From: Bdellovibrionota bacterium
GTDB taxonomy: Bacteria > Bdellovibrionota > UBA1018 > UBA923
Assembly: GCA_040754655.1 (NCBI GenBank)
Contig: JBFMCE010000005.1
Location: 1-60,776 of the forward strand
DNA length: 60,776 bases
Direction: 5' to 3'
Shown: in pieces, positions 15,940-24,075 of the stretch
Position numbering within the stretch: position 1 is the stretch's first letter
How the letters are laid out: every line of letters begins with the position of its first letter
Program-made: the position numbers and the translations under genes
The notes under the pieces: model-generated
Databases searched by the model: none
Told to the model about the DNA's origin: nothing
Seen by the model: only the letters and a program-made list of their open reading frames with translations

Positions 15940-16113
15940 ATGACCAACGTTCGACAATATCTCGGAGACGCCAAGTTTCCGGCCAGCAAACGAGAATTGA
16001 TTGATTGTGCGCGTAGTCACAATGCCCCGACAGATGTCATCACCACAATTGAGAAGATGAGCGATCGCAGTTATCGCGATCTCAGTGAAGTCGTACGAGA
16101 AGTAAGCCTGTAG
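15940..16113 (+). CDS. DUF2795-like small protein (57 aa; not in the ORF track)
   Basis: AAGGAGG SD then MTNVRQYLGDAKFPASKRELIDCARSHNAPTDVITTIEKMSDRSYRDLSEVVREVSL; L-x-x-x-x-FPA-x-K-x-EL ... DRxY pattern recalls DUF2795. Confidence 0.8.
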   Translation: MTNVRQYLGDAKFPASKRELIDCARSHNAPTDVITTIEKMSDRSYRDLSEVVREVSL

Positions 16114-16163: not shown

Positions 16164-17915
16164 TTAGTCTGAAAGACGAATCACTTCGACGGCGCCTGTG
16201 GGGCAGATTTGCATGCAGGCGTCGTCGAATGTGCAATTCTTGCAGTTTGGTTCCTTCAAATGCACTCGCCGGTTCTGCACTCCGAAAATATCGTTGGGGC
16301 ATACCTCAACACAGCCGCCGCACTGGATACAGAGATTCTGATCAAGAACAAATTGAGCTTTTTCGGTGCGATAACCGCTGATGTTCTCGTCAAAGGGACC
16401 AGAAGCTTTCTTGGGTTTTTTTCTAGCTTCGTCGATGGCCGCCGCGCTTTCTTTGCGTACGGTAACCACTTTCAAGAGGTTGGTGGTGCCATGCTTCAAA
16501 GGCGGCCAACCAGCGGTGAGCACGACGAGGTCTCCTTTTTCCACAAGCCTCGCATTGACTAAAGCTTCTTCGGCGTAATCAAAAAGTTTCTCAATATCAG
16601 TGCTGGATTCAGTTTCACAGGTCTGAACGCCCCAAACCAGGGCAAGCTTGCGTTGCACAGCGGGATTATCGGTGAAGGCCATGATGGGAACAGTGGGACG
16701 GTACCTCGCAAGAGCCTGAGCGGCTTGCCCCGTGTGAGTGGTACAGGCGATGGCTTTAGCCCCAACCCAGGTGGCAAGATTCGCGGCCGCATGTTCGATG
16801 GCATCGACTAACGAGGGCGAACGCAAAGAAAAAGAATGTGATTCGGGATGCGATTTGCCTGAGCCGTTCGCCAAAACAGGAACGCGTTGCTCGGTTTCTA
16901 AGATAATATTGTGCATCACCGAGACCGTAAGAACCGGAAATTTTCCAGAAGCCGTCTCAGCCGACAACATCACGGCGTCAGTACCATCGAGCACGGCGTT
17001 TGCTACGTCACTCGCTTCTGCGCGGGTCGGGCGCGGAAGGTTGATCATGCTCTCAAGCATTTGAGTCGCGGTGATCACCGGAATGCCGCGCGCGTTGCAC
17101 TCACGAATGATTTGTTTCTGAAGGGTAGGGACTTGGGCTGTGCCTACTTCGACGGCCAAATCTCCCCTGGCCACCATGACGGCGTCAGTGACTTCGAGGA
17201 TTTCTTTTAAATTGGCGATGGCTTCGCCCTTCTCGATCTTCGATACCACCGGGATGTTCTTGCGGTGCGCGTGCATGAATTTCTGCACCGTTCGAACATC
17301 GTTGGCCGTGCGGACAAACGAGAGCGCAACGTAGTCAACGCCGAGCTTCAGCCCGAATAGCAGATCCTCGCGGTCTTTGGGCGTGAAGCTGTCGATGGTG
17401 ATGTTGGTATCAGGAAAGTTCATTCCCTTATGGTTTTTCAGGGGGCCCCCGAAGACAACCTGGGCCAAAATGTCTTGATCATTGATTCCCGTCACGACGA
17501 CTTCAAGGTTTCCGTCGTCCATCAAAATACGGTGGCCGACCTTGATCTCTTGAGCGAGGCGTTCATAGTTGTAGGGAACTACGGCGCGCGATGCAGATGT
17601 CACTGCGTTCTCAGTGCCTTCAAGCCTTAAGACGATCTCTTGGCCTTTTTCCAACGTGATTATGCCGGCAGGAAACTTTCCGACGCGAAGCTTTGGGCCT
17701 TGCAGGTCTTGCAGGATCGCTACTGCGCGTCCCAGTTTCTTGGCTGCTTCCCTGACCGTATCAAAGCGTGTTTGGTGGTCTTCTTTGGTGCCGTGGGAGA
17801 AGTTGAAACGGAAGACGTTGACCCCGGCCTTGATCAGGTTTTCAATGGTGACAGAGTCTGAGCTCGAGGGGCCTAGGGTTGCGACAATCTTAGCTCTTCT
17901 TAAGGGCAAGTTCAT
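16164..17915 (-). CDS. pyk: pyruvate kinase with C-terminal 4Fe-4S dicluster (ferredoxin-like) domain
   Basis: KIVATLGPSS, DLQGPKLR, KIEK, MVARGDL, ATQMLESM, DAVMLSAETA; C-terminal CIQCGGCVEVCP and CKNCTFDDACMQICP. Confidence 0.95.
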   Translation of the reverse strand: MNLPLRRAKIVATLGPSSSDSVTIENLIKAGVNVFRFNFSHGTKEDHQTRFDTVREAAKKLGRAVAILQDLQGPKLRVGKFPAGIITLEKGQEIVLRLEGTENAVTSASRAVVPYNYERLAQEIKVGHRILMDDGNLEVVVTGINDQDILAQVVFGGPLKNHKGMNFPDTNITIDSFTPKDREDLLFGLKLGVDYVALSFVRTANDVRTVQKFMHAHRKNIPVVSKIEKGEAIANLKEILEVTDAVMVARGDLAVEVGTAQVPTLQKQIIRECNARGIPVITATQMLESMINLPRPTRAEASDVANAVLDGTDAVMLSAETASGKFPVLTVSVMHNIILETEQRVPVLANGSGKSHPESHSFSLRSPSLVDAIEHAAANLATWVGAKAIACTTHTGQAAQALARYRPTVPIMAFTDNPAVQRKLALVWGVQTCETESSTDIEKLFDYAEEALVNARLVEKGDLVVLTAGWPPLKHGTTNLLKVVTVRKESAAAIDEARKKPKKASGPFDENISGYRTEKAQFVLDQNLCIQCGGCVEVCPNDIFGVQNRRVHLKEPNCKNCTFDDACMQICPTGAVEVIRLSD

Positions 17916-19839
17916 GAGTTCGTTTTATCTTCTCTAGAGTTTCTTTAAAGGCCTCTTCTTGGACTCTTAGTTTTTCTTTCATCTGCTGGTCTTTTGCCTC
18001 AAGCTCGCGGGTGTGCATGAGCCTTTCCTTATCCATGGCTTCCTTGGTCTTGCGCAAGACGTCACGAACCGCCTTTTCAGACTCGTCCTTGACCTTCTGC
18101 GTTTCAGCAGCGTGATACTCTTTTAGCTGATTTACCTTTGCTTCGGAAGCGGTAAGTAAGAGTCTGTTTTTATTTTGCAGTTCGAGCATCTGCATGCGCT
18201 TCTCATGATCGGTTTCGGTGCGCAAGCGGGCGAGTTGCTGCATGCTATCGTATTTCAAGTTTTCAGTGATCTCGTCATGGCTCTCCTTTTGACGGATGAG
18301 GGCCTTTGAATAAGAGTCTGTAAGGCGCTTGGCGCGGGCTTTCATCAGGTCTTCATTCTGAAGCTGGTTAGAGCGCTGGGTCATTTCATACTCTTGCGAG
18401 TGAACCCTTAATGTCTCTTGCAATTGGTGCACGCGGTTGCGGTTCTCTCGAGCGGCTCTCGCCATTTCTTTCTGATTCCCTTGCCTCAAGCTGCTGATGG
18501 TATCGTTGTAATAGTTCCGTTGATACTCAAGCTCTCGATTGCGTGACTCGGTCAAGCTTTCTTCTTGATCCATCACGGCTTTCGCGATGTTGCGTTTTTC
18601 TTCCTCGTGCTTTTGAGTCGAGGTGATCTTGTCGTGCTGGTTTTGTTTTATGAGTTGATTGCGCTCTTCAATGGCATTGAGCTCTTGTTCATTGATCCGC
18701 TTCTTGAAGGTGTTGGCTTGTTCTTGGGTCTCTCTCTGGTGTTTGTCGTCTTTTGCACGCGTCTGGTCGGTATGCTGCATTTGCAGCATATTGCGAGAGA
18801 GGTCATTGTTCTTCCTGATAGCATCCGAGTTCAAGAAGACGTCTTGTTTGTGCCGGCGCTCATCCAGGGTGTCTTTGAGCGCGTTGCGGTCTTTTTCGGC
18901 CACGAGTTGGTACTGAAGGTCGTTTTCGCGCTTCTTGAACTGAGAGCGTTGTTCTTGAAGTTTTGACTGGTGCTCTTGTTCCGAGAGAGCGATGCGGTTG
19001 GCGTTTTCGCGATCGGCCTGGGCATTTTGGAAGTGGTTCTCATCAATCAGTTTTCTAACGGTATCCGACATGCGCTCTCGGTAGCCTTCGAAAGACTTGC
19101 CCATGTCTTTTCCGACGTTAGCGCCGATGAGATTTTTCTCATCCGTCAGTTGTTGCTCTCGAAGGTCATAAGAGCGCTTCATGTTGCCGCGATCAGCTGC
19201 GCTTTCCTCAGCGAGTTTTCGGTACTTCAGCTCTGCGCCGAGTTTTTCTTTAGCGAGCTCATCGCCATTTTTGCGGATATTGTCGTCAACATGGTGGCGC
19301 GCATTGGCCACGATTTGCCCCATGGCTTCATCGTGGGCTTGGTTGCGCAGGGAAAGCTTGCGATCGAAATAAGATTTGAGCTCTTGGCGGTCTTGCTCGA
19401 AAGTGTCTCGCACCTTTTTGTAGCGGGCTTCTCGTTCGGTGCGCTCGCCGTCAACATTGCGTGAAGTCGATTCAATGAGGTCATTGAACCGCCCGTTCTG
19501 CATCTCGCGGTCGCGGTCGCGTTCTCGCGTTTGTTCCGAGATCAGGCGCCCAAGCCGGTCGTAGTTCTGCCTGCGCTCTTCGCTGAGAGACTTTTCATAG
19601 GTATCGCCTTCTTTTCCGAGTTGTTCTTTGAAGTTCTCGCGGGCCTCACCAAGTTGGTGGTTCGACTTTTCTTGTACTTCCTTGATGTTTTCTTGTTGAG
19701 TCTGTTCGAGGCGATCGATCTGTTGGCGCTGCTTCTCGCGCATGCCCTCGATCTCGCGTGCGTGTTCGTCTTCGCGGTTTCTTAAGAGGCGATTGGCGAG
19801 TTCGACCTCGCGCCGCGCCTGCGATTCAGTCACATCCAT
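17890..19839 (-). CDS. long coiled-coil hypothetical protein
   Basis: 649 aa of E/K/R/Q-rich helical sequence lacking Pro, Trp and Cys; GGAGGGAGAGG SD; overlaps the pyk start by 26 nt. Confidence 0.85.
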   Translation of the reverse strand: MDVTESQARREVELANRLLRNREDEHAREIEGMREKQRQQIDRLEQTQQENIKEVQEKSNHQLGEARENFKEQLGKEGDTYEKSLSEERRQNYDRLGRLISEQTRERDRDREMQNGRFNDLIESTSRNVDGERTEREARYKKVRDTFEQDRQELKSYFDRKLSLRNQAHDEAMGQIVANARHHVDDNIRKNGDELAKEKLGAELKYRKLAEESAADRGNMKRSYDLREQQLTDEKNLIGANVGKDMGKSFEGYRERMSDTVRKLIDENHFQNAQADRENANRIALSEQEHQSKLQEQRSQFKKRENDLQYQLVAEKDRNALKDTLDERRHKQDVFLNSDAIRKNNDLSRNMLQMQHTDQTRAKDDKHQRETQEQANTFKKRINEQELNAIEERNQLIKQNQHDKITSTQKHEEEKRNIAKAVMDQEESLTESRNRELEYQRNYYNDTISSLRQGNQKEMARAARENRNRVHQLQETLRVHSQEYEMTQRSNQLQNEDLMKARAKRLTDSYSKALIRQKESHDEITENLKYDSMQQLARLRTETDHEKRMQMLELQNKNRLLLTASEAKVNQLKEYHAAETQKVKDESEKAVRDVLRKTKEAMDKERLMHTRELEAKDQQMKEKLRVQEEAFKETLEKIKRTHELALKKS

Positions 19840-20263: not shown

Positions 20264-21976
20264 TCATTCTAGGTGCTCTAACGCTTCGATCATTTCTTCG
20301 GTCTCTTCAGGAGTAGGCAGCACGTCTGCGTTGCCAGGCGGCATCCTGCCATCTATCCCCCTCAATCGATCAACCACTTTTAGCTTTCGTGCCATACCTC
20401 TGTCATCTGGTCGCAAATCCTCAGTAGTGTAGTTCCTCATCTTTTCGAAGCTTTCGAGCGGAAGAGGCATATCGGAGTCCTTACCCCCGTGGCATTGAGC
20501 ACAATACTTTTGAAACTGCCCTTCTATGAATTTTATAGTTTCCCTTCTCTTAGAAGAGTCTTCAATGGCGTCCATGATTCTTTGAACGGTTAGCTTTTTC
20601 GGAGTATCCGTTTCGCAAACCTCTGGATTAGCAGCAGTTCCACGTAGCTTTAAGGCTGATACCCTCACAAAGTTCATGACTTTTCGTCCTATTGGCGGCC
20701 AAGATTCCAATATCGCCTTCATGGATTTTTCATCTGGATTTTTGAGGATGATCTTTTTTACTTCATCAGGTTCCAATGTGTTTAGATAGCGGAAGTCTGC
20801 ATCAGAAAACCCAAAACAAGAGTTCAAGAGGTGCAGCAGCTTGCTTGCAGCCTTTTCACGGACTAAGCTCGACACCTTTGGCCTTGGCGTTTTTGGATCA
20901 GCAAGAATCTGAGCGGCTGTACCAGAAATAGTAATCGTCGAAAGTTTCGGATCATCGGAAAAAACACCGGCGGTTTCCTCATTATAAGTTTCCAAATAGG
21001 GCTTCAATTGTTCCTCAGTCGGTGGGTTTGAAAAGTTATGCGTTTTGTTTGAGCGGTCTTTTAAGGCCTTAAGGAAGACTGTGGGGCCTTCTGCTCGATC
21101 GAGCAATGGGTCTCGATCCGGCAGCACTGAGCTCGGATAACTAAAATTGTCAGATGGCCATAGTCCTGTTACAGCCTCGGCAAACTCTTGATCAAGAGTC
21201 GCGATGCTTTTCGCGTCTAAACTATGCTCCTTTAGAAGCCCAAGATACAGAAGCTGTTTTTTACATGTCTCGTTGTTTTTGCACAGATTTGTACAGACAT
21301 TTACGCTCTGTAGCGCTCGATTGGCGATTCGCACATTCGAATCGATAAGATCGCCAGGGAATTTACCTTCAGGAAAAATCGCAGCTTCGGCATTCGGAAC
21401 GGTAATCAGTTTTTTTCCAGCTCTCAAACGTGCTTTTTTTACCTCGGTCTCAACCGCCTTATTTTCGGTCGTTTCTCTCCATGGTCGCGGAGTAAAGATT
21501 GGTCCGCCGGCCTGGTGGCAACTCATGCAGAGTTGGCGATCCGCCTGTATTACCTTTGGCCTTAATCCAGGTGCGTAGTCTTTAACGATCAAAAATTCAT
21601 AGCGTTTACTTTTTTGACTCCAAGTAATGACTTCGAGTTCTTGGGCATTGGGAACCAGCCCCACGAACGATGGTGGAACGCTGGCATTGCTTTCAAGAAC
21701 GACTATTCTACGAGGTTCTCCGTAATCAGCTTCTTTCTTTTTTAGAGAGCGACCGTCCGGAATTGGCAAGGAGCCGCTCAGCCCAGCCGTTGCATTTCCA
21801 TAGAGGTTCAGAAGATTAACAAGTTGATCAAAATCAGTCGGAATGTTGCCATCATTCTCATCAATGATTGTCTCGAAGCGAGTTGGGCCGGCCTGGCAAA
21901 TTGAAGAGCAAACAAATACCAATAAAGAAAGTAATATAAACGCTGAATATTTAGATAAACAGCCCCGAACTAGCAT
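20264..21976 (-). CDS. secreted di-heme c-type cytochrome-like protein
   Basis: Signal peptide; CMSCH and CAQCH heme-binding motifs; RMPP (possible Met ligand) after the second. Confidence 0.8.
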   Translation of the reverse strand: MLVRGCLSKYSAFILLSLLVFVCSSICQAGPTRFETIIDENDGNIPTDFDQLVNLLNLYGNATAGLSGSLPIPDGRSLKKKEADYGEPRRIVVLESNASVPPSFVGLVPNAQELEVITWSQKSKRYEFLIVKDYAPGLRPKVIQADRQLCMSCHQAGGPIFTPRPWRETTENKAVETEVKKARLRAGKKLITVPNAEAAIFPEGKFPGDLIDSNVRIANRALQSVNVCTNLCKNNETCKKQLLYLGLLKEHSLDAKSIATLDQEFAEAVTGLWPSDNFSYPSSVLPDRDPLLDRAEGPTVFLKALKDRSNKTHNFSNPPTEEQLKPYLETYNEETAGVFSDDPKLSTITISGTAAQILADPKTPRPKVSSLVREKAASKLLHLLNSCFGFSDADFRYLNTLEPDEVKKIILKNPDEKSMKAILESWPPIGRKVMNFVRVSALKLRGTAANPEVCETDTPKKLTVQRIMDAIEDSSKRRETIKFIEGQFQKYCAQCHGGKDSDMPLPLESFEKMRNYTTEDLRPDDRGMARKLKVVDRLRGIDGRMPPGNADVLPTPEETEEMIEALEHLE

Positions 21977-22998: not shown

Positions 22999-24075
22999 TC
23001 AGCCGCCTGCCAATTCTTCGTCGATGGCTTCTCTGAAGTTCTCAACCGGCAACGCACCTGCAACAGGGCGGCCGTTGATGAAGAACGTCGGAGTGCTTCT
23101 CACGCCAAGCTTTGAGCCGTACTCCAAGTCGTCTTGAACAAGTTTTGCGTATTTCTTTTCTTCAAAACACTTGTTGAACTTCTCCATGTCGGCGCCGACT
23201 TCCTTGGCGTATTTCTTCAAGTTCTCGTTATCAAGCTTGTCTTGATTCGCGAAGAGCTTGTCATGGTACTTCCAGTACTTGTCGGTGTTTTGTTCGTTCA
23301 CGCACATTGATGCTTCAGATGCGGGTTTTGCTTGAGGGTGCATCGGAAGAGGAAAGTGTTTGAACGCCACTTGGATCTTGTTGCCATAGATCTTCTTCAG
23401 TTCGTTGACCGTGTTCGCACCTCGTGAACAGAAAGGGCACTGGAAGTCAGAAAATTCAACGATCTTCACCTTAGCGTCTTTTCCGCCGAAGGTGGGAGCT
23501 TGGCCGATATCGATGTTCACCTTCACGTTGGGCTTGGCGAAATAGATTTCAACCTTGTGCTTCTTCGAGAGAGAGACAATCAACTTCTCGAGCTCTTCTT
23601 GCTTCTTCTGAGCCTTCATATAGGTCAGGATGCGTTCTTTGAGTTGAGGGTTGAGCTGTTCCTTGGGGATCTTCTTTTCTTGAACGAACTTATTGTATTC
23701 GCTGTCTGAAATCTTCGCGTCACCCTTCAGAACCTTCGTTTCAACGTACTCATCAAGCCCCAAGTTGGCTTTCTTTGCTTCTTCGCTATAGGAACGCTCA
23801 AGAAGCAGTCTGCCGATGCGGCTCATGCGAAGGTCATAGATCTTGCGCAGGGCTTCAACGAATTCGAGCTTCTCTTCGCCCATGAGTTCATCCTCACTGA
23901 CGGGCTTTCCATCAATGCTGGCGACAGCCCCGGCCGGGCCTTGACCTTCTTTAAAAGTATACTTAGGTTTTTCTTTAGCGTTGCCGTTGCCGGTACAAGC
24001 AAAGGCAATCACCATTGCGACTGCCGCCATACCTACTAAAAGCGGTGTGTTGAGATATTTACGCAGAGCAGACAT
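22999..24075 (-). CDS. DsbA/BdbD-family thiol-disulfide oxidoreductase lipoprotein with N-terminal helical domain
   Basis: EFSDFQCPFC, HFPL, GVRSTPTFFING motifs; AFAC lipobox. Confidence 0.9.
   Translation of the reverse strand: MSALRKYLNTPLLVGMAAVAMVIAFACTGNGNAKEKPKYTFKEGQGPAGAVASIDGKPVSEDELMGEEKLEFVEALRKIYDLRMSRIGRLLLERSYSEEAKKANLGLDEYVETKVLKGDAKISDSEYNKFVQEKKIPKEQLNPQLKERILTYMKAQKKQEELEKLIVSLSKKHKVEIYFAKPNVKVNIDIGQAPTFGGKDAKVKIVEFSDFQCPFCSRGANTVNELKKIYGNKIQVAFKHFPLPMHPQAKPASEASMCVNEQNTDKYWKYHDKLFANQDKLDNENLKKYAKEVGADMEKFNKCFEEKKYAKLVQDDLEYGSKLGVRSTPTFFINGRPVAGALPVENFREAIDEELAGG

What the first reader, a model, noticed from the sequence alone, without database searches (positions are those of the whole stretch)
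16164..16355. Pyruvate kinase fused to a 2x[4Fe-4S] ferredoxin-like domain
Seen: after a complete PK (ending GTTNLLKV) and a charged linker, the same frame continues with CIQCGGCVEVCP and CKNCTFDDACMQICPTGA, i.e. CxxCxxCxxxCP plus a variant with a longer spacer. Established: the familiar extra C-terminal PK domain (Firmicutes, cyanobacteria) is a PEP-utiliser swivel domain, not an Fe-S domain. I do not recall a characterised Fe-S PK. Inference: redox, O2 or iron sensing built into the last glycolytic step, or electron channelling to a pyruvate:ferredoxin oxidoreductase.
Basis: partly seen in the sequence, partly recalled or inferred. Interest (0 to 1): 0.8.

Follow-up and report, generated by a model that had tools for sequence, protein, structure and literature searches.

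The report
Pyruvate kinase with iron-sulfur tail
This bacterium's only detected pyruvate kinase ends in a conserved ferredoxin-type iron-sulfur domain, an unstudied design shared by many Bdellovibrio-like bacteria that may let a central step of sugar breakdown sense oxygen, oxidants or iron.

Summary
Window 16164-17915 (minus strand) is one 583-aa frame: PK barrel, PK_C, a variable linker and a 72-residue Fer4 domain.

It is not an artefact. The same architecture occurs in 8 of 41 related genomes, in 18 metagenome proteins and in at least 41 of 51 sampled genomes of a second family of the phylum. Database names place that family with Peredibacter starrii and Bacteriovoracaceae. The tail is the most constrained part of the gene (pN/pS 0.19 against 0.77 for the linker).

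The "longer spacer" motif is better read as CxxDxxCxxxCP. The Asp is invariant in 58 of 58 sequences, and this clade adds one more Cys three residues upstream. Asp-type sites in ferredoxins carry a labile iron (papers read as passages).

The PFOR-channelling idea is not supported. No POR_N or POR domain was found in this 90%-complete, oxidase-bearing genome, and co-occurrence elsewhere is inconsistent.

The most likely role, by inference only, is a built-in Fe-S sensor that modulates PK. Five literature searches for such a PK found no description. I rate it a new variant of a known kind, interest about 0.6.

The parts
16164..17915 (-). Whole PK-ferredoxin gene (583 aa plus stop codon). It is the only PK match found in the genome.
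   Evidence: ORF list and translation. G000 has 1 match to this protein.
16923..17900 (-). PK barrel (A and B) domain, residues 6-331.
   Evidence: Pfam PF00224, E 5.6e-118, profile positions 2-328 of 328.
16464..16805 (-). PK_C alpha/beta domain, residues 371-484.
   Evidence: Pfam PF02887, E 9.4e-34, profile positions 1-114 of 114.
16383..16463 (-). Charged, poorly conserved linker, residues about 485-511.
   Evidence: For residues 489-512: mean pairwise aa identity 0.22 and pN/pS 0.77 among 8 genomes. Length varies in alignment A1. pLDDT is below 50 for residues 499-509.
16167..16382 (-). Ferredoxin-type Fe-S domain, residues 512-583. It includes an N-terminal beta-hairpin (512-525) with invariant Y515, R516, Q521, F522 and D525.
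   Evidence: Pfam Fer4, Fer4_7 and Fer4_10. Domain model pLDDT 90.9. Foldseek top matches are ferredoxins. For residues 513-583: pN/pS 0.19 and aa identity 0.75.
16296..16331 (-). Motif 1, C529-x2-C532-x2-C535-x3-C539-P540 (canonical).
   Evidence: Read. Invariant in 58 of 58 sequences.
16200..16244 (-). Motif 2, C558-x2-C561-x2-D564-x2-C567-x3-C571-P572. This is the family-wide CxxDxxCxxxCP plus the clade-specific C558.
   Evidence: Read. C561, D564, C567, C571 and P572 are invariant in 58 of 58. C558 is present in 21 of 21 clade proteins and in 0 of 75 Bacteriovoracaceae-type proteins.
17890..19839 (-). Upstream 649-aa highly charged coiled-coil-like gene. Its end overlaps the PK start by 26 nt, so it is probably co-transcribed. 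It is context, not part of the enzyme.
   Evidence: No Pfam family. A gene of 640-669 aa sits in the same position in G002, G004 and three loci of family f22.

Best explanation
Shown: the gene encodes the genome's only detected pyruvate kinase. A flexible linker joins it to a 72-residue bacterial-type dicluster ferredoxin domain. Inferred from the ligand pattern and from the established ligand-swapped arrangement of clostridial-type ferredoxins (recalled): one all-Cys [4Fe-4S] site is formed by C529, C532, C535 and C571. A second site is formed by C561, C567 and C539 plus the invariant D564, or in this clade possibly the extra C558. Such Cys3-Asp sites hold a [4Fe-4S] cluster with one easily lost iron, which converts to [3Fe-4S] in air. 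Most likely mechanism (inferred, not shown): the PK reaction involves no redox step, the organism respires oxygen, and it has no detected ferredoxin-dependent pyruvate oxidoreductase. The tail therefore probably acts as a built-in sensor. Loss, oxidation or nitrosylation of the labile cluster would change the tail's fold or its docking on the C-domain. That would alter PK activity, tetramer state or stability, tying flux at the PEP-pyruvate node to O2, oxidant, NO or iron/Fe-S status. A PPDK-like enzyme also sits at that node.
For: The fusion is real. The architecture recurs in 8 of 41 genomes of the order, own genome included, in 18 of 18 metagenome homologues, and in at least 41 of 51 sampled genomes of family f22. 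In the best 120 hits of a tail-profile search, 87 are PK-type, and some carry the names Peredibacter starrii and Bacteriovoracaceae. Selection: pN/pS is 0.19 for the tail, 0.25 for the barrel, 0.42 for PK_C and 0.77 for the linker. Ligands: seven Cys plus D564 are invariant in 58 of 58. Fold: pLDDT 90.9; the best PDB match is the [3Fe-4S][4Fe-4S] ferredoxin 2vkr_A, E 6.2e-4, rmsd 2.2 A over 62 columns. Labile Asp site: PMC6237146 states that the P. furiosus CXXDXXC ferredoxin is isolated as 3Fe in air and as 4Fe anaerobically (passages). PMC5411485 shows the Asp-ligated [4Fe-4S] of NsrR acting as an NO sensor and says the Asp-bound Fe of ferredoxins is easily lost (passages). No obvious redox partner: G000 has no POR_N or POR, has COX1 twice, E1_dh four times and a PPDK_N protein. 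The same tail type (canonical motif plus CxxDxxC) also ends another non-redox enzyme, a patatin-like phospholipase (P0125 and P0077). That fits a portable regulatory module.
Against: Nothing here shows cluster binding, or any effect on PK. The full-length model places the tail with low confidence (pLDDT 39-57 for residues 491-583). The tail has been lost or was never gained in close relatives (G002, G004; G084, G111, G227), so it is dispensable in some lineages. In family f22, 2-oxoacid:ferredoxin oxidoreductase domains are common (36 of 51 genomes over cut-off). The PK gene there is followed by the Fe-S enzyme QueG in 14 of 14 genomes with both positions known. An electron-carrier role is therefore not excluded in that family. 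The net charge of the tail (mean -2.5) does not discriminate between roles.
Confidence: 0.45

Rival explanations
1. Tethered electron carrier. The tail is a working ferredoxin that shuttles electrons for another enzyme, such as a KorAB-type 2-oxoacid:ferredoxin oxidoreductase using the pyruvate that PK makes, or epoxyqueuosine reductase QueG. PK would serve only as an anchor or a channelling partner.
For: The domain has an ordinary electron-transfer ferredoxin fold. POR_N-bearing genes occur in 36 of 51 f22 genomes, many as 610-645-aa KorA-like frames. That such enzymes lack a built-in ferredoxin domain is recalled, not tested here. QueG lies directly downstream of PK in 14 of 14 f22 genomes where both positions are known.
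Against: G000 has no POR_N or POR (genome 90% complete). Only 2 of the 8 fusion genomes of this order have POR_N. Of 13 fused-PK f22 genomes sampled in both calls, 4 that are 99-100% complete have none (G048, G134, G123, G139) and 3 have only weak matches. POR_N genes are never next to PK in the 6 f22 genomes with strong matches. QueG also follows PK in the 2 unfused f22 genomes (G084, G227). QueG is elsewhere in 8 of 8 fused genomes of the window's order. The tail resembles the neighbouring QueG's own Fe-S region only at motif level.
Confidence: 0.2
2. Structural module. The Fe-S or Cys-rich tail merely stabilises the PK tetramer or mediates assembly or localisation, with no signalling role. 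This would parallel the extra C-terminal domain of Geobacillus-type PKs or the structural clusters of some DNA repair enzymes (both recalled).
For: C-terminal extra domains on PK are tolerated in other lineages (recalled). The tail is strongly conserved. No partner or effector is evident from gene context.
Against: A flexible, fast-evolving linker is an odd way to build a fixed structural brace. An invariant Asp at a cluster position (58 of 58) points to selection for the special, labile site rather than for a robust all-Cys structural cluster. Repeated absence of the tail in close relatives shows that the tetramer does not need it.
Confidence: 0.2
3. Artefact or decaying relic: an assembly join, a stop-codon loss reading into a neighbouring ferredoxin gene, or a non-functional remnant.
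For: No sequencing run could be listed to check read support. Some close relatives end right after PK_C.
Against: The same frame and architecture appear in independent assemblies: 8 genomes and 18 metagenome proteins and dozens of f22 genomes, several of them single-contig. pN/pS is 0.19 and all ligands are invariant.
Confidence: 0.02

Closest known systems
Bacterial pyruvate kinases with an extra C-terminal domain (Geobacillus / Staphylococcus / cyanobacterial type; PK + PK_C + PEP-utiliser mobile domain). Recalled, not fetched here.
   Same: A complete PK barrel and PK_C are followed by one more small domain at the C-terminus.
   Different: The extra domain here is a Fer4 dicluster ferredoxin domain, not PF00391 (no such match). 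It would carry metal clusters.
Asp-variant ferredoxins: Pyrococcus furiosus Fd (CXXDXXC(X)nCP) and Desulfovibrio africanus FdIII (Asp14).
   Same: A cluster motif with Asp in place of the second Cys. These proteins interconvert 3Fe and 4Fe forms and lose the Asp-bound Fe easily (PMC6237146 and PMC5411485, passages).
   Different: Those are free electron carriers. P. furiosus Fd has a single cluster. Here the Asp motif is the second of two motifs and the domain is fused to a non-redox enzyme. This clade adds an extra Cys at position -3.
7Fe ([3Fe-4S][4Fe-4S]) archaeal ferredoxins of Acidianus ambivalens (2vkr_A) and Sulfolobus (1xer).
   Same: Best structural matches of the domain model: E 6.2e-4 and 1.6e-3, TMq about 0.6, rmsd 2.2 A, 27-28% identity. 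Both were also sequence hits.
   Different: They are free-standing, with a Zn-binding N-terminal extension. There is no PK.
Fe-S clusters used as sensors in non-redox proteins: NsrR (Asp-ligated [4Fe-4S], NO sensor; PMC5411485), and, recalled, FNR, aconitase/IRP1 and B. subtilis PurF.
   Same: This is the proposed logic: a labile cluster reports O2, NO or iron status and changes the protein's activity or stability. NsrR uses a Cys3-Asp site.
   Different: The folds are unrelated. Nothing here shows that this PK responds to its cluster.
Polyferredoxin MvhB (9sw6_G).
   Same: Best PDB sequence match (E 3.4e-27, summed over repeats). Its first repeat has a CxxCx5CxxxCP spacing like the window's C558...C571.
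   Different: It is a multi-repeat electron wire of methanogens. The similarity is confined to the generic Fer4 repeat.

Membership tests
Pyruvate kinase (Pfam PK PF00224 + PK_C PF02887) | Full-length barrel domain and C-terminal alpha/beta domain | tested here: met
   PF00224 E 5.6e-118 over profile positions 2-328 of 328. PF02887 E 9.4e-34 over 1-114 of 114.
Pyruvate kinase | Conserved catalytic and metal-binding motifs (R-x-N-x-SH, K-I-E, MVARGDL, ATQML). The roles of these motifs are recalled. | tested here: met
   R36, N38, S40, H41, K226, E228, R250, G251, D252, T284 and Q285 are invariant in 18 of 18. Which residue does what is recalled, not tested.
Pyruvate kinase | PEP + ADP -> pyruvate + ATP activity | not testable with these tools
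   Needs an enzyme assay.
2x[4Fe-4S] clostridial-type ferredoxin domain (Pfam Fer4 clan) | Two CxxCxxCxxxCP motifs | tested here: not met
   Motif 1 is canonical. Motif 2 is CxxDxxCxxxCP with an extra Cys at -3. It is therefore a variant, not the canonical 8-Cys form.
2x[4Fe-4S] clostridial-type ferredoxin domain (Pfam Fer4 clan) | Profile match and (beta-alpha-beta)2 ferredoxin fold | tested here: met
   Fer4, Fer4_7 and Fer4_10 match above cut-off. The model has pLDDT 90.9. The Foldseek top 50 are almost all Fe-S ferredoxin domains.
2x[4Fe-4S] clostridial-type ferredoxin domain (Pfam Fer4 clan) | Binds Fe-S clusters | not testable with these tools
   Needs Fe/S analysis, UV-vis and EPR.
Asp-variant (CxxDxxC) 3Fe/4Fe-interconverting ferredoxins | Asp at the position of the second Cys of a cluster motif | tested here: met
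   D564 is invariant in 58 of 58. It is D in 10 of 11 and E in 1 of the diverse tails. All 75 of 75 Bacteriovoracaceae-type PKs have CxxDxxCxxxCP.
Asp-variant (CxxDxxC) 3Fe/4Fe-interconverting ferredoxins | Reversible loss of the Asp-bound iron | not testable with these tools
   Needs spectroscopy. In this clade C558 might replace Asp as the ligand.
PK with PEP-utiliser-type extra C-terminal domain | PF00391-like domain after PK_C | tested here: not met
   No such family among the 19 Pfam matches at E up to 1.
Ferredoxin module of pyruvate/2-oxoacid:ferredoxin oxidoreductase systems (PorD, PFOR domain V) | Co-occurrence or adjacency with POR_N/POR catalytic subunits | tested here: not met
   G000 has none. 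Only 2 of 8 fused genomes of the order have POR_N. Four complete fused f22 genomes have none, and PK and POR_N are never adjacent.

The most novel reading that the evidence does not exclude
A glycolytic kinase gated by an iron-sulfur switch. The Cys3-Asp cluster of the tail would lose an iron, or be nitrosylated, under O2, oxidant, NO or iron stress. That would turn the cell's only PK up or down and re-route carbon at the PEP-pyruvate node. In predatory Bdellovibrio-like bacteria this could follow the change between free-swimming and prey-associated growth. It would be the first Fe-S-regulated pyruvate kinase. Together with the patatin-Fer4 fusions, it would also mark a portable Fe-S sensor module for non-redox enzymes.
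Probability: 0.3. Interest if true: 0.8.

Novelty: new variant of a known kind. Interest (0 to 1): 0.6.

Why it matters
Pyruvate kinase is among the best studied allosteric enzymes. I know of no form with a metal-cluster domain, and five full-text searches for one found none. The architecture is the rule in one whole family of Bdellovibrionota, which by its database names includes the cultured Peredibacter starrii. It also occurs in proteins labelled Dependentiae and Planctomycetota, and in an Atlas cluster whose commonest phylum is Walliibacteriota. In the public records seen here it is annotated as 'pyruvate kinase' or as '4Fe-4S dicluster domain-containing protein'. If the tail is a sensor, it is a new way of coupling central carbon flux to oxygen or iron status. 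If it is a tethered carrier, it is an unusual case of a ferredoxin anchored to a kinase. Either answer is directly testable with a recombinant protein.

Tried and rejected
1. Docking of the tail (residues 510-583) on PK (1-490) with two 4Fe-4S ligands. Complex prediction gave no verdict (after a full queue). It counts neither for nor against binding.

2. Read support and expression. No sequencing run was listed ('none was listed', and no RNA holder was listed).

3. The full-length AlphaFold2 model on 18 sequences left the tail at low confidence. Only the domain-alone model on 58 sequences was usable.

4. Net charge and pI of the tails (mean -2.5 and -4.6, against -2.5 for free ferredoxin hits) did not separate carrier from sensor.

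5. Origin of the fusion.
- PK-part trees place the window's f1/f7 clade, the f22 clade and the Dependentiae/Planctomycetota-type proteins apart.
- G002 is sister to the fused clade.
- The position of G004 is unresolved: inside the clade, outside it.
- Deep nodes are weak and long branches meet, so single versus multiple origin is undecided.
- In one search, 15 same-order loci were left out because my motif filter missed them. They were added.

6. The tail did not derive from the neighbouring QueG Fe-S region. Only motif-level similarity was found.

7. The promoter and terminator scan found nothing useful.

8. Earlier notes of this scan contained nothing on this gene or architecture.

9. The stop-loss or assembly artefact reading was rejected.
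Full report
OBSERVATION

The minus strand of window 16164-17915 holds one 583-codon ORF (translation). Pfam finds:
- a complete PK barrel (residues 6-331, E 5.6e-118);
- a complete PK_C domain (371-484, E 9.4e-34);
- several Fer4-clan models above their cut-offs over residues 523-575 (Fer4 E 1.4e-9, Fer4_7, Fer4_10).

GTTNLLKV is residues 476-483. CIQCGGCVEVCP is residues 529-540 (16296-16331). CKNCTFDDACMQICP is residues 558-572 (16200-16244), as read. No PEP-utiliser-type domain is present.

NOT AN ARTEFACT

Evidence from other assemblies:
- A word-indexed search with residues 470-583 returned 18 other proteins of 454-600 aa. All are annotated with PK, PK_C and Fer4 Pfam domains, and are 62-72% identical over the tail.
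- Whole-genome search of the 40 nearest genomes plus the window's own genome found the protein matched through residues 581-583 in 8 of 41. These are G000, G001, G003, G005, G006 and G007 in the window's family f1, and G015 and G023 in family f7.
- The other PKs of the order are 45-50% identical and stop at about residue 485-505.
- Two f1 genomes, G004 (68% identical) and G002 (56%), end a few residues after PK_C ('...KVVTVRSDYQK' and '...SDYKA'). They have no ferredoxin ORF behind.
- G000 has a single PK match.

Evidence from codon alignment of the eight genomes:

| Region | Residues | pN/pS | Mean aa identity |
|---|---|---|---|
| Tail | 513-583 | 0.19 | 0.75 |
| Barrel | 1-345 | 0.25 | 0.72 |
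| PK_C | 366-488 | 0.42 | 0.52 |
| Linker | 489-512 | 0.77 | 0.22 |

Synonymous sites are near saturation, so the ratios are rough, but the contrast is clear. No sequencing run could be listed for a read-level check.

HOW WIDESPREAD

The 80-residue tail was searched with phmmer against 1.84 billion representatives. It gave 775 hits at E <= 1e-3 but only 3 at E <= 1e-30, and all three are PK fusions or fragments of them.

Further down that list, at 35-43% identity, lie other PK + Fer4 proteins:
- 10 of 17 that I scanned with Pfam;
- 13 of the 150 listed hits, by a phmmer check with the PK part.

Source names for these include 'Candidatus Dependentiae bacterium', 'Planctomycetota bacterium' and 'Bacteriovoracaceae bacterium'. 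The ESM Atlas holds a 63-member PK + PK_C cluster in which 79% carry Fer4. Its commonest phylum is Candidatus Walliibacteriota.

A profile of eleven diverse tails (A2) was searched against longer proteins. It gave 1426 hits at E <= 1e-5 among the 8000 candidates scored. Of the best 120, 87 are PK-type: 75 of the 108 new ids plus 12 ids already held. Most are 564-566 aa. Their names include 'pyruvate kinase [Peredibacter starrii]' and 'Peredibacter sp. HCB2-198'. NCBI taxonomy places Peredibacter in Bdellovibrionota, Bacteriovoracia, Bacteriovoracaceae.

I then sampled 251 genomes of the window's phylum. Among the 150 of 252 matches that were listed, full-length matches (to residue 578 or beyond, in open frames of 554-603 aa) occur only in:
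- f1 (G000, G003, G005);
- f7 (G015, G023);
- 41 of the 51 sampled genomes of family f22.

Three f22 genomes (G084, G111, G227) have a PK without the tail. The other seven were not among the listed rows. From the names of the matching proteins I infer that f22 is Bacteriovoracaceae and the phylum is Bdellovibrionota.

THE CLUSTER MOTIFS

All eight Cys are invariant in 18 of 18 clade proteins. Across 58 sequences spanning the clade, f22-type, Dependentiae/Planctomycetota-type and some free ferredoxins (A3), the invariant columns are:
- motif 1: C529, C532, C535, C539, P540;
- motif 2: C561, D564, C567, C571, P572.

The family's second motif is therefore CxxDxxCxxxCP: the canonical motif with Asp in place of the second Cys. 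C558 is present in 21 of 21 proteins of the window's clade. It is absent in 0 of 75 f22-type proteins and in the 10 other tails of A2. With C558 the window reads CxxCx5CxxxCP. That spacing also occurs in repeat 1 of the solved polyferredoxin MvhB (9sw6_G). In this clade either D564 or C558 could therefore be the fourth ligand.

Among the top 149 tail hits, 26 have Cxx[DE]xxCxxxCP, of which 12 are PK-type and 14 are not. Two of the non-PK hits are patatin-like phospholipases with the same C-terminal tail (P0125, P0077). One is a PK_C fragment (P0166).

The tail alone, modelled on A3, gives mean pLDDT 90.9. It has an extra N-terminal beta-hairpin (residues 512-525) before the ferredoxin core. 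Foldseek against the PDB returns ferredoxin domains almost exclusively. The best is the [3Fe-4S][4Fe-4S] ferredoxin of Acidianus ambivalens (2vkr_A, E 6.2e-4, rmsd 2.2 A over 62 columns), followed by 1xer.

WHAT ASP-TYPE SITES DO (FROM PAPERS, READ AS PASSAGES)

PMC6237146 states that the best studied ferredoxin of this type, from P. furiosus (CXXDXXC(X)nCP), has one iron bound by aspartate. It is isolated as [3Fe-4S] in air and as [4Fe-4S] when oxygen is excluded, with different potentials. PMC5411485 shows that the NO sensor NsrR holds its [4Fe-4S] cluster with three Cys and Asp8. [quoted passage not shown] The ligand-swapped assignment used here is recalled knowledge of clostridial-type ferredoxins. 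In that arrangement the first three ligands of one motif combine with the CP-Cys of the other motif.

CONTEXT AND THE PFOR IDEA

G000 is 90% complete. Family searches of it gave:
- no POR_N and no POR gamma domain;
- two COX1 genes;
- four E1_dh matches;
- a PPDK_N protein in an 897-aa frame.

The genome therefore carries haem-copper oxidases and E1_dh-type 2-oxoacid dehydrogenases, so pyruvate is probably oxidised by a dehydrogenase complex, and a PEP-regenerating enzyme sits opposite PK.

In the window's order, only G001 and G003 of the 8 fused genomes have POR_N.

In f22 the picture is mixed. POR_N is over cut-off in 36 of 51 genomes. Of 13 fused-PK genomes present in both samples:
- 6 have strong matches;
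- 3 have weak ones (G192, G070, G091);
- 4 have none, at 99-100% completeness (G048, G134, G123, G139).

In the 6 with strong matches, the POR_N gene is on another contig or more than 170 kb from PK. Channelling to a ferredoxin-dependent pyruvate oxidoreductase is thus not supported for this genome, and it is not a general correlate of the fusion.

The window's neighbours are MutS, a DUF2795 ORF, an amidase and an unannotated 649-aa charged protein upstream, whose end overlaps the PK start by 26 nt.

A gene of similar size and position precedes PK in G002, G004 and three f22 loci. BLASTP between the window's copy and an f22 copy is not significant (E 0.11).

In f22 the gene after PK is epoxyqueuosine reductase QueG. 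This holds in 14 of 14 genomes where both positions are known, including the 2 unfused ones. G151 appears to be an exception: no ORF of 90 aa or more follows PK there.

In the window's order, QueG lies elsewhere in 8 of 8 fused genomes. The tail resembles QueG's own Fe-S region only at motif level.

EVOLUTION

PK-part trees give the following picture:
- The unfused PKs of the window's order form one clade (FastTree support 1.0). The f1/f7 group is separate from it.
- G002 is sister to the fused clade (98/98). G004 is unresolved: it falls inside an open fork and outside the clade.
- f22 PKs form their own clade, in which the unfused G084 is sister to the fused G151. That points to a loss.
- The Dependentiae/Planctomycetota-type fusions group elsewhere (92/84).

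Long branches meet and deep nodes are weak. One ancient fusion with losses, several fusions, or transfer cannot be told apart. In one search, 15 loci were left out by a faulty filter and were added.

MECHANISM

Shown: a conserved, selected, ferredoxin-fold tail with seven Cys plus one Asp, on the only detected PK of an oxidase-bearing genome that lacks a detectable PFOR.

Inferred: it binds one all-Cys [4Fe-4S] cluster and one Cys3-Asp (or Cys4) cluster with a labile iron.

Inferred with less certainty (about 0.45): the tail works as a sensor of O2, oxidant, NO or iron that modulates PK. This would follow the logic of NsrR and, recalled, of FNR, aconitase/IRP1 and B. subtilis PurF.

Rivals:
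- a tethered electron carrier for a 2-oxoacid oxidoreductase, QueG or another enzyme (0.2);
- a purely structural module (0.2);
- an artefact or relic (0.02).

The docking prediction gave no verdict and is not counted either way.

NOVELTY

Five full-text searches for such a PK found no paper describing a PK with an Fe-S or ferredoxin domain. They combined 'pyruvate kinase' with '4Fe-4S', 'ferredoxin domain', '4Fe-4S dicluster', 'Peredibacter', and 'iron-sulfur' plus 'domain architecture'. I saw only the result listings. Subscription journals are not covered. The proteins are already in public databases under the names 'pyruvate kinase' or '4Fe-4S dicluster domain-containing protein'. The architecture itself is therefore catalogued but, as far as I could find, unstudied. 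I rate it a new variant of a known kind. The window's clade is a sub-variant with an extra Cys.

Noticed in passing
window 17890-19839 (-); L014 56-2026; L015 3941-5893; L054 2897-4819; L055 6511-8520; L056 6332-8272: A 640-669-aa, highly charged, coiled-coil-like protein with no Pfam family sits directly upstream of the PK gene in both classes of the phylum, whether or not PK carries the tail. In the window it overlaps PK by 26 nt. BLASTP between the window's copy and an f22 copy is not significant (E 0.11), so the conservation is positional.
   Followed up: partly
proteins P0125 (367 aa) and P0077 (213 aa, fragment): Patatin-like phospholipases carry the same kind of C-terminal tail (canonical motif plus CxxDxxCxxxCP). 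This is a second non-redox enzyme fused to this ferredoxin subtype.
   Followed up: partly
L055 3704-4744 (-), L056 3557-4576 (-), and 12 further f22 genomes: Epoxyqueuosine reductase QueG (QueG_DUF1730 + Fer4_16) lies immediately downstream of PK in 14 of 14 f22 genomes with both positions known. This includes 2 genomes whose PK lacks the tail. It is not so in the window's order, where 8 of 8 have QueG elsewhere.
   Followed up: yes
window 22999-24075 (-); L054 1718-2773; L056 8404-9459: A roughly 351-358-aa DsbA/Thioredoxin_4 protein lies a few genes upstream of PK in the window. In f22 loci it is directly upstream of the coiled-coil gene. This is a loosely conserved neighbourhood across classes.
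   Followed up: partly
L050 (G139, family f22): This PK tail has CA instead of CP at the end of motif 1 (CAYCQSCVSVCA). It is the only departure from the invariant Pro that I saw.
   Followed up: no
L014 (G004), L015 (G002), L045 (G084), L046 (G111): Close relatives inside both fused clades have a PK that stops just after PK_C. The tail has therefore been lost, or gained late, more than once.
   Followed up: partly
window 15940-16113 (+): A small DUF2795 ORF (57 aa, E 2.2e-15) is convergent with the PK gene and lies between it and mutS.
   Followed up: no
window 20264-21976 (-): A 570-aa protein has only a weak C-terminal cytochrome c (Cytochrome_CBB3) match and is otherwise unannotated by Pfam.
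   Followed up: no
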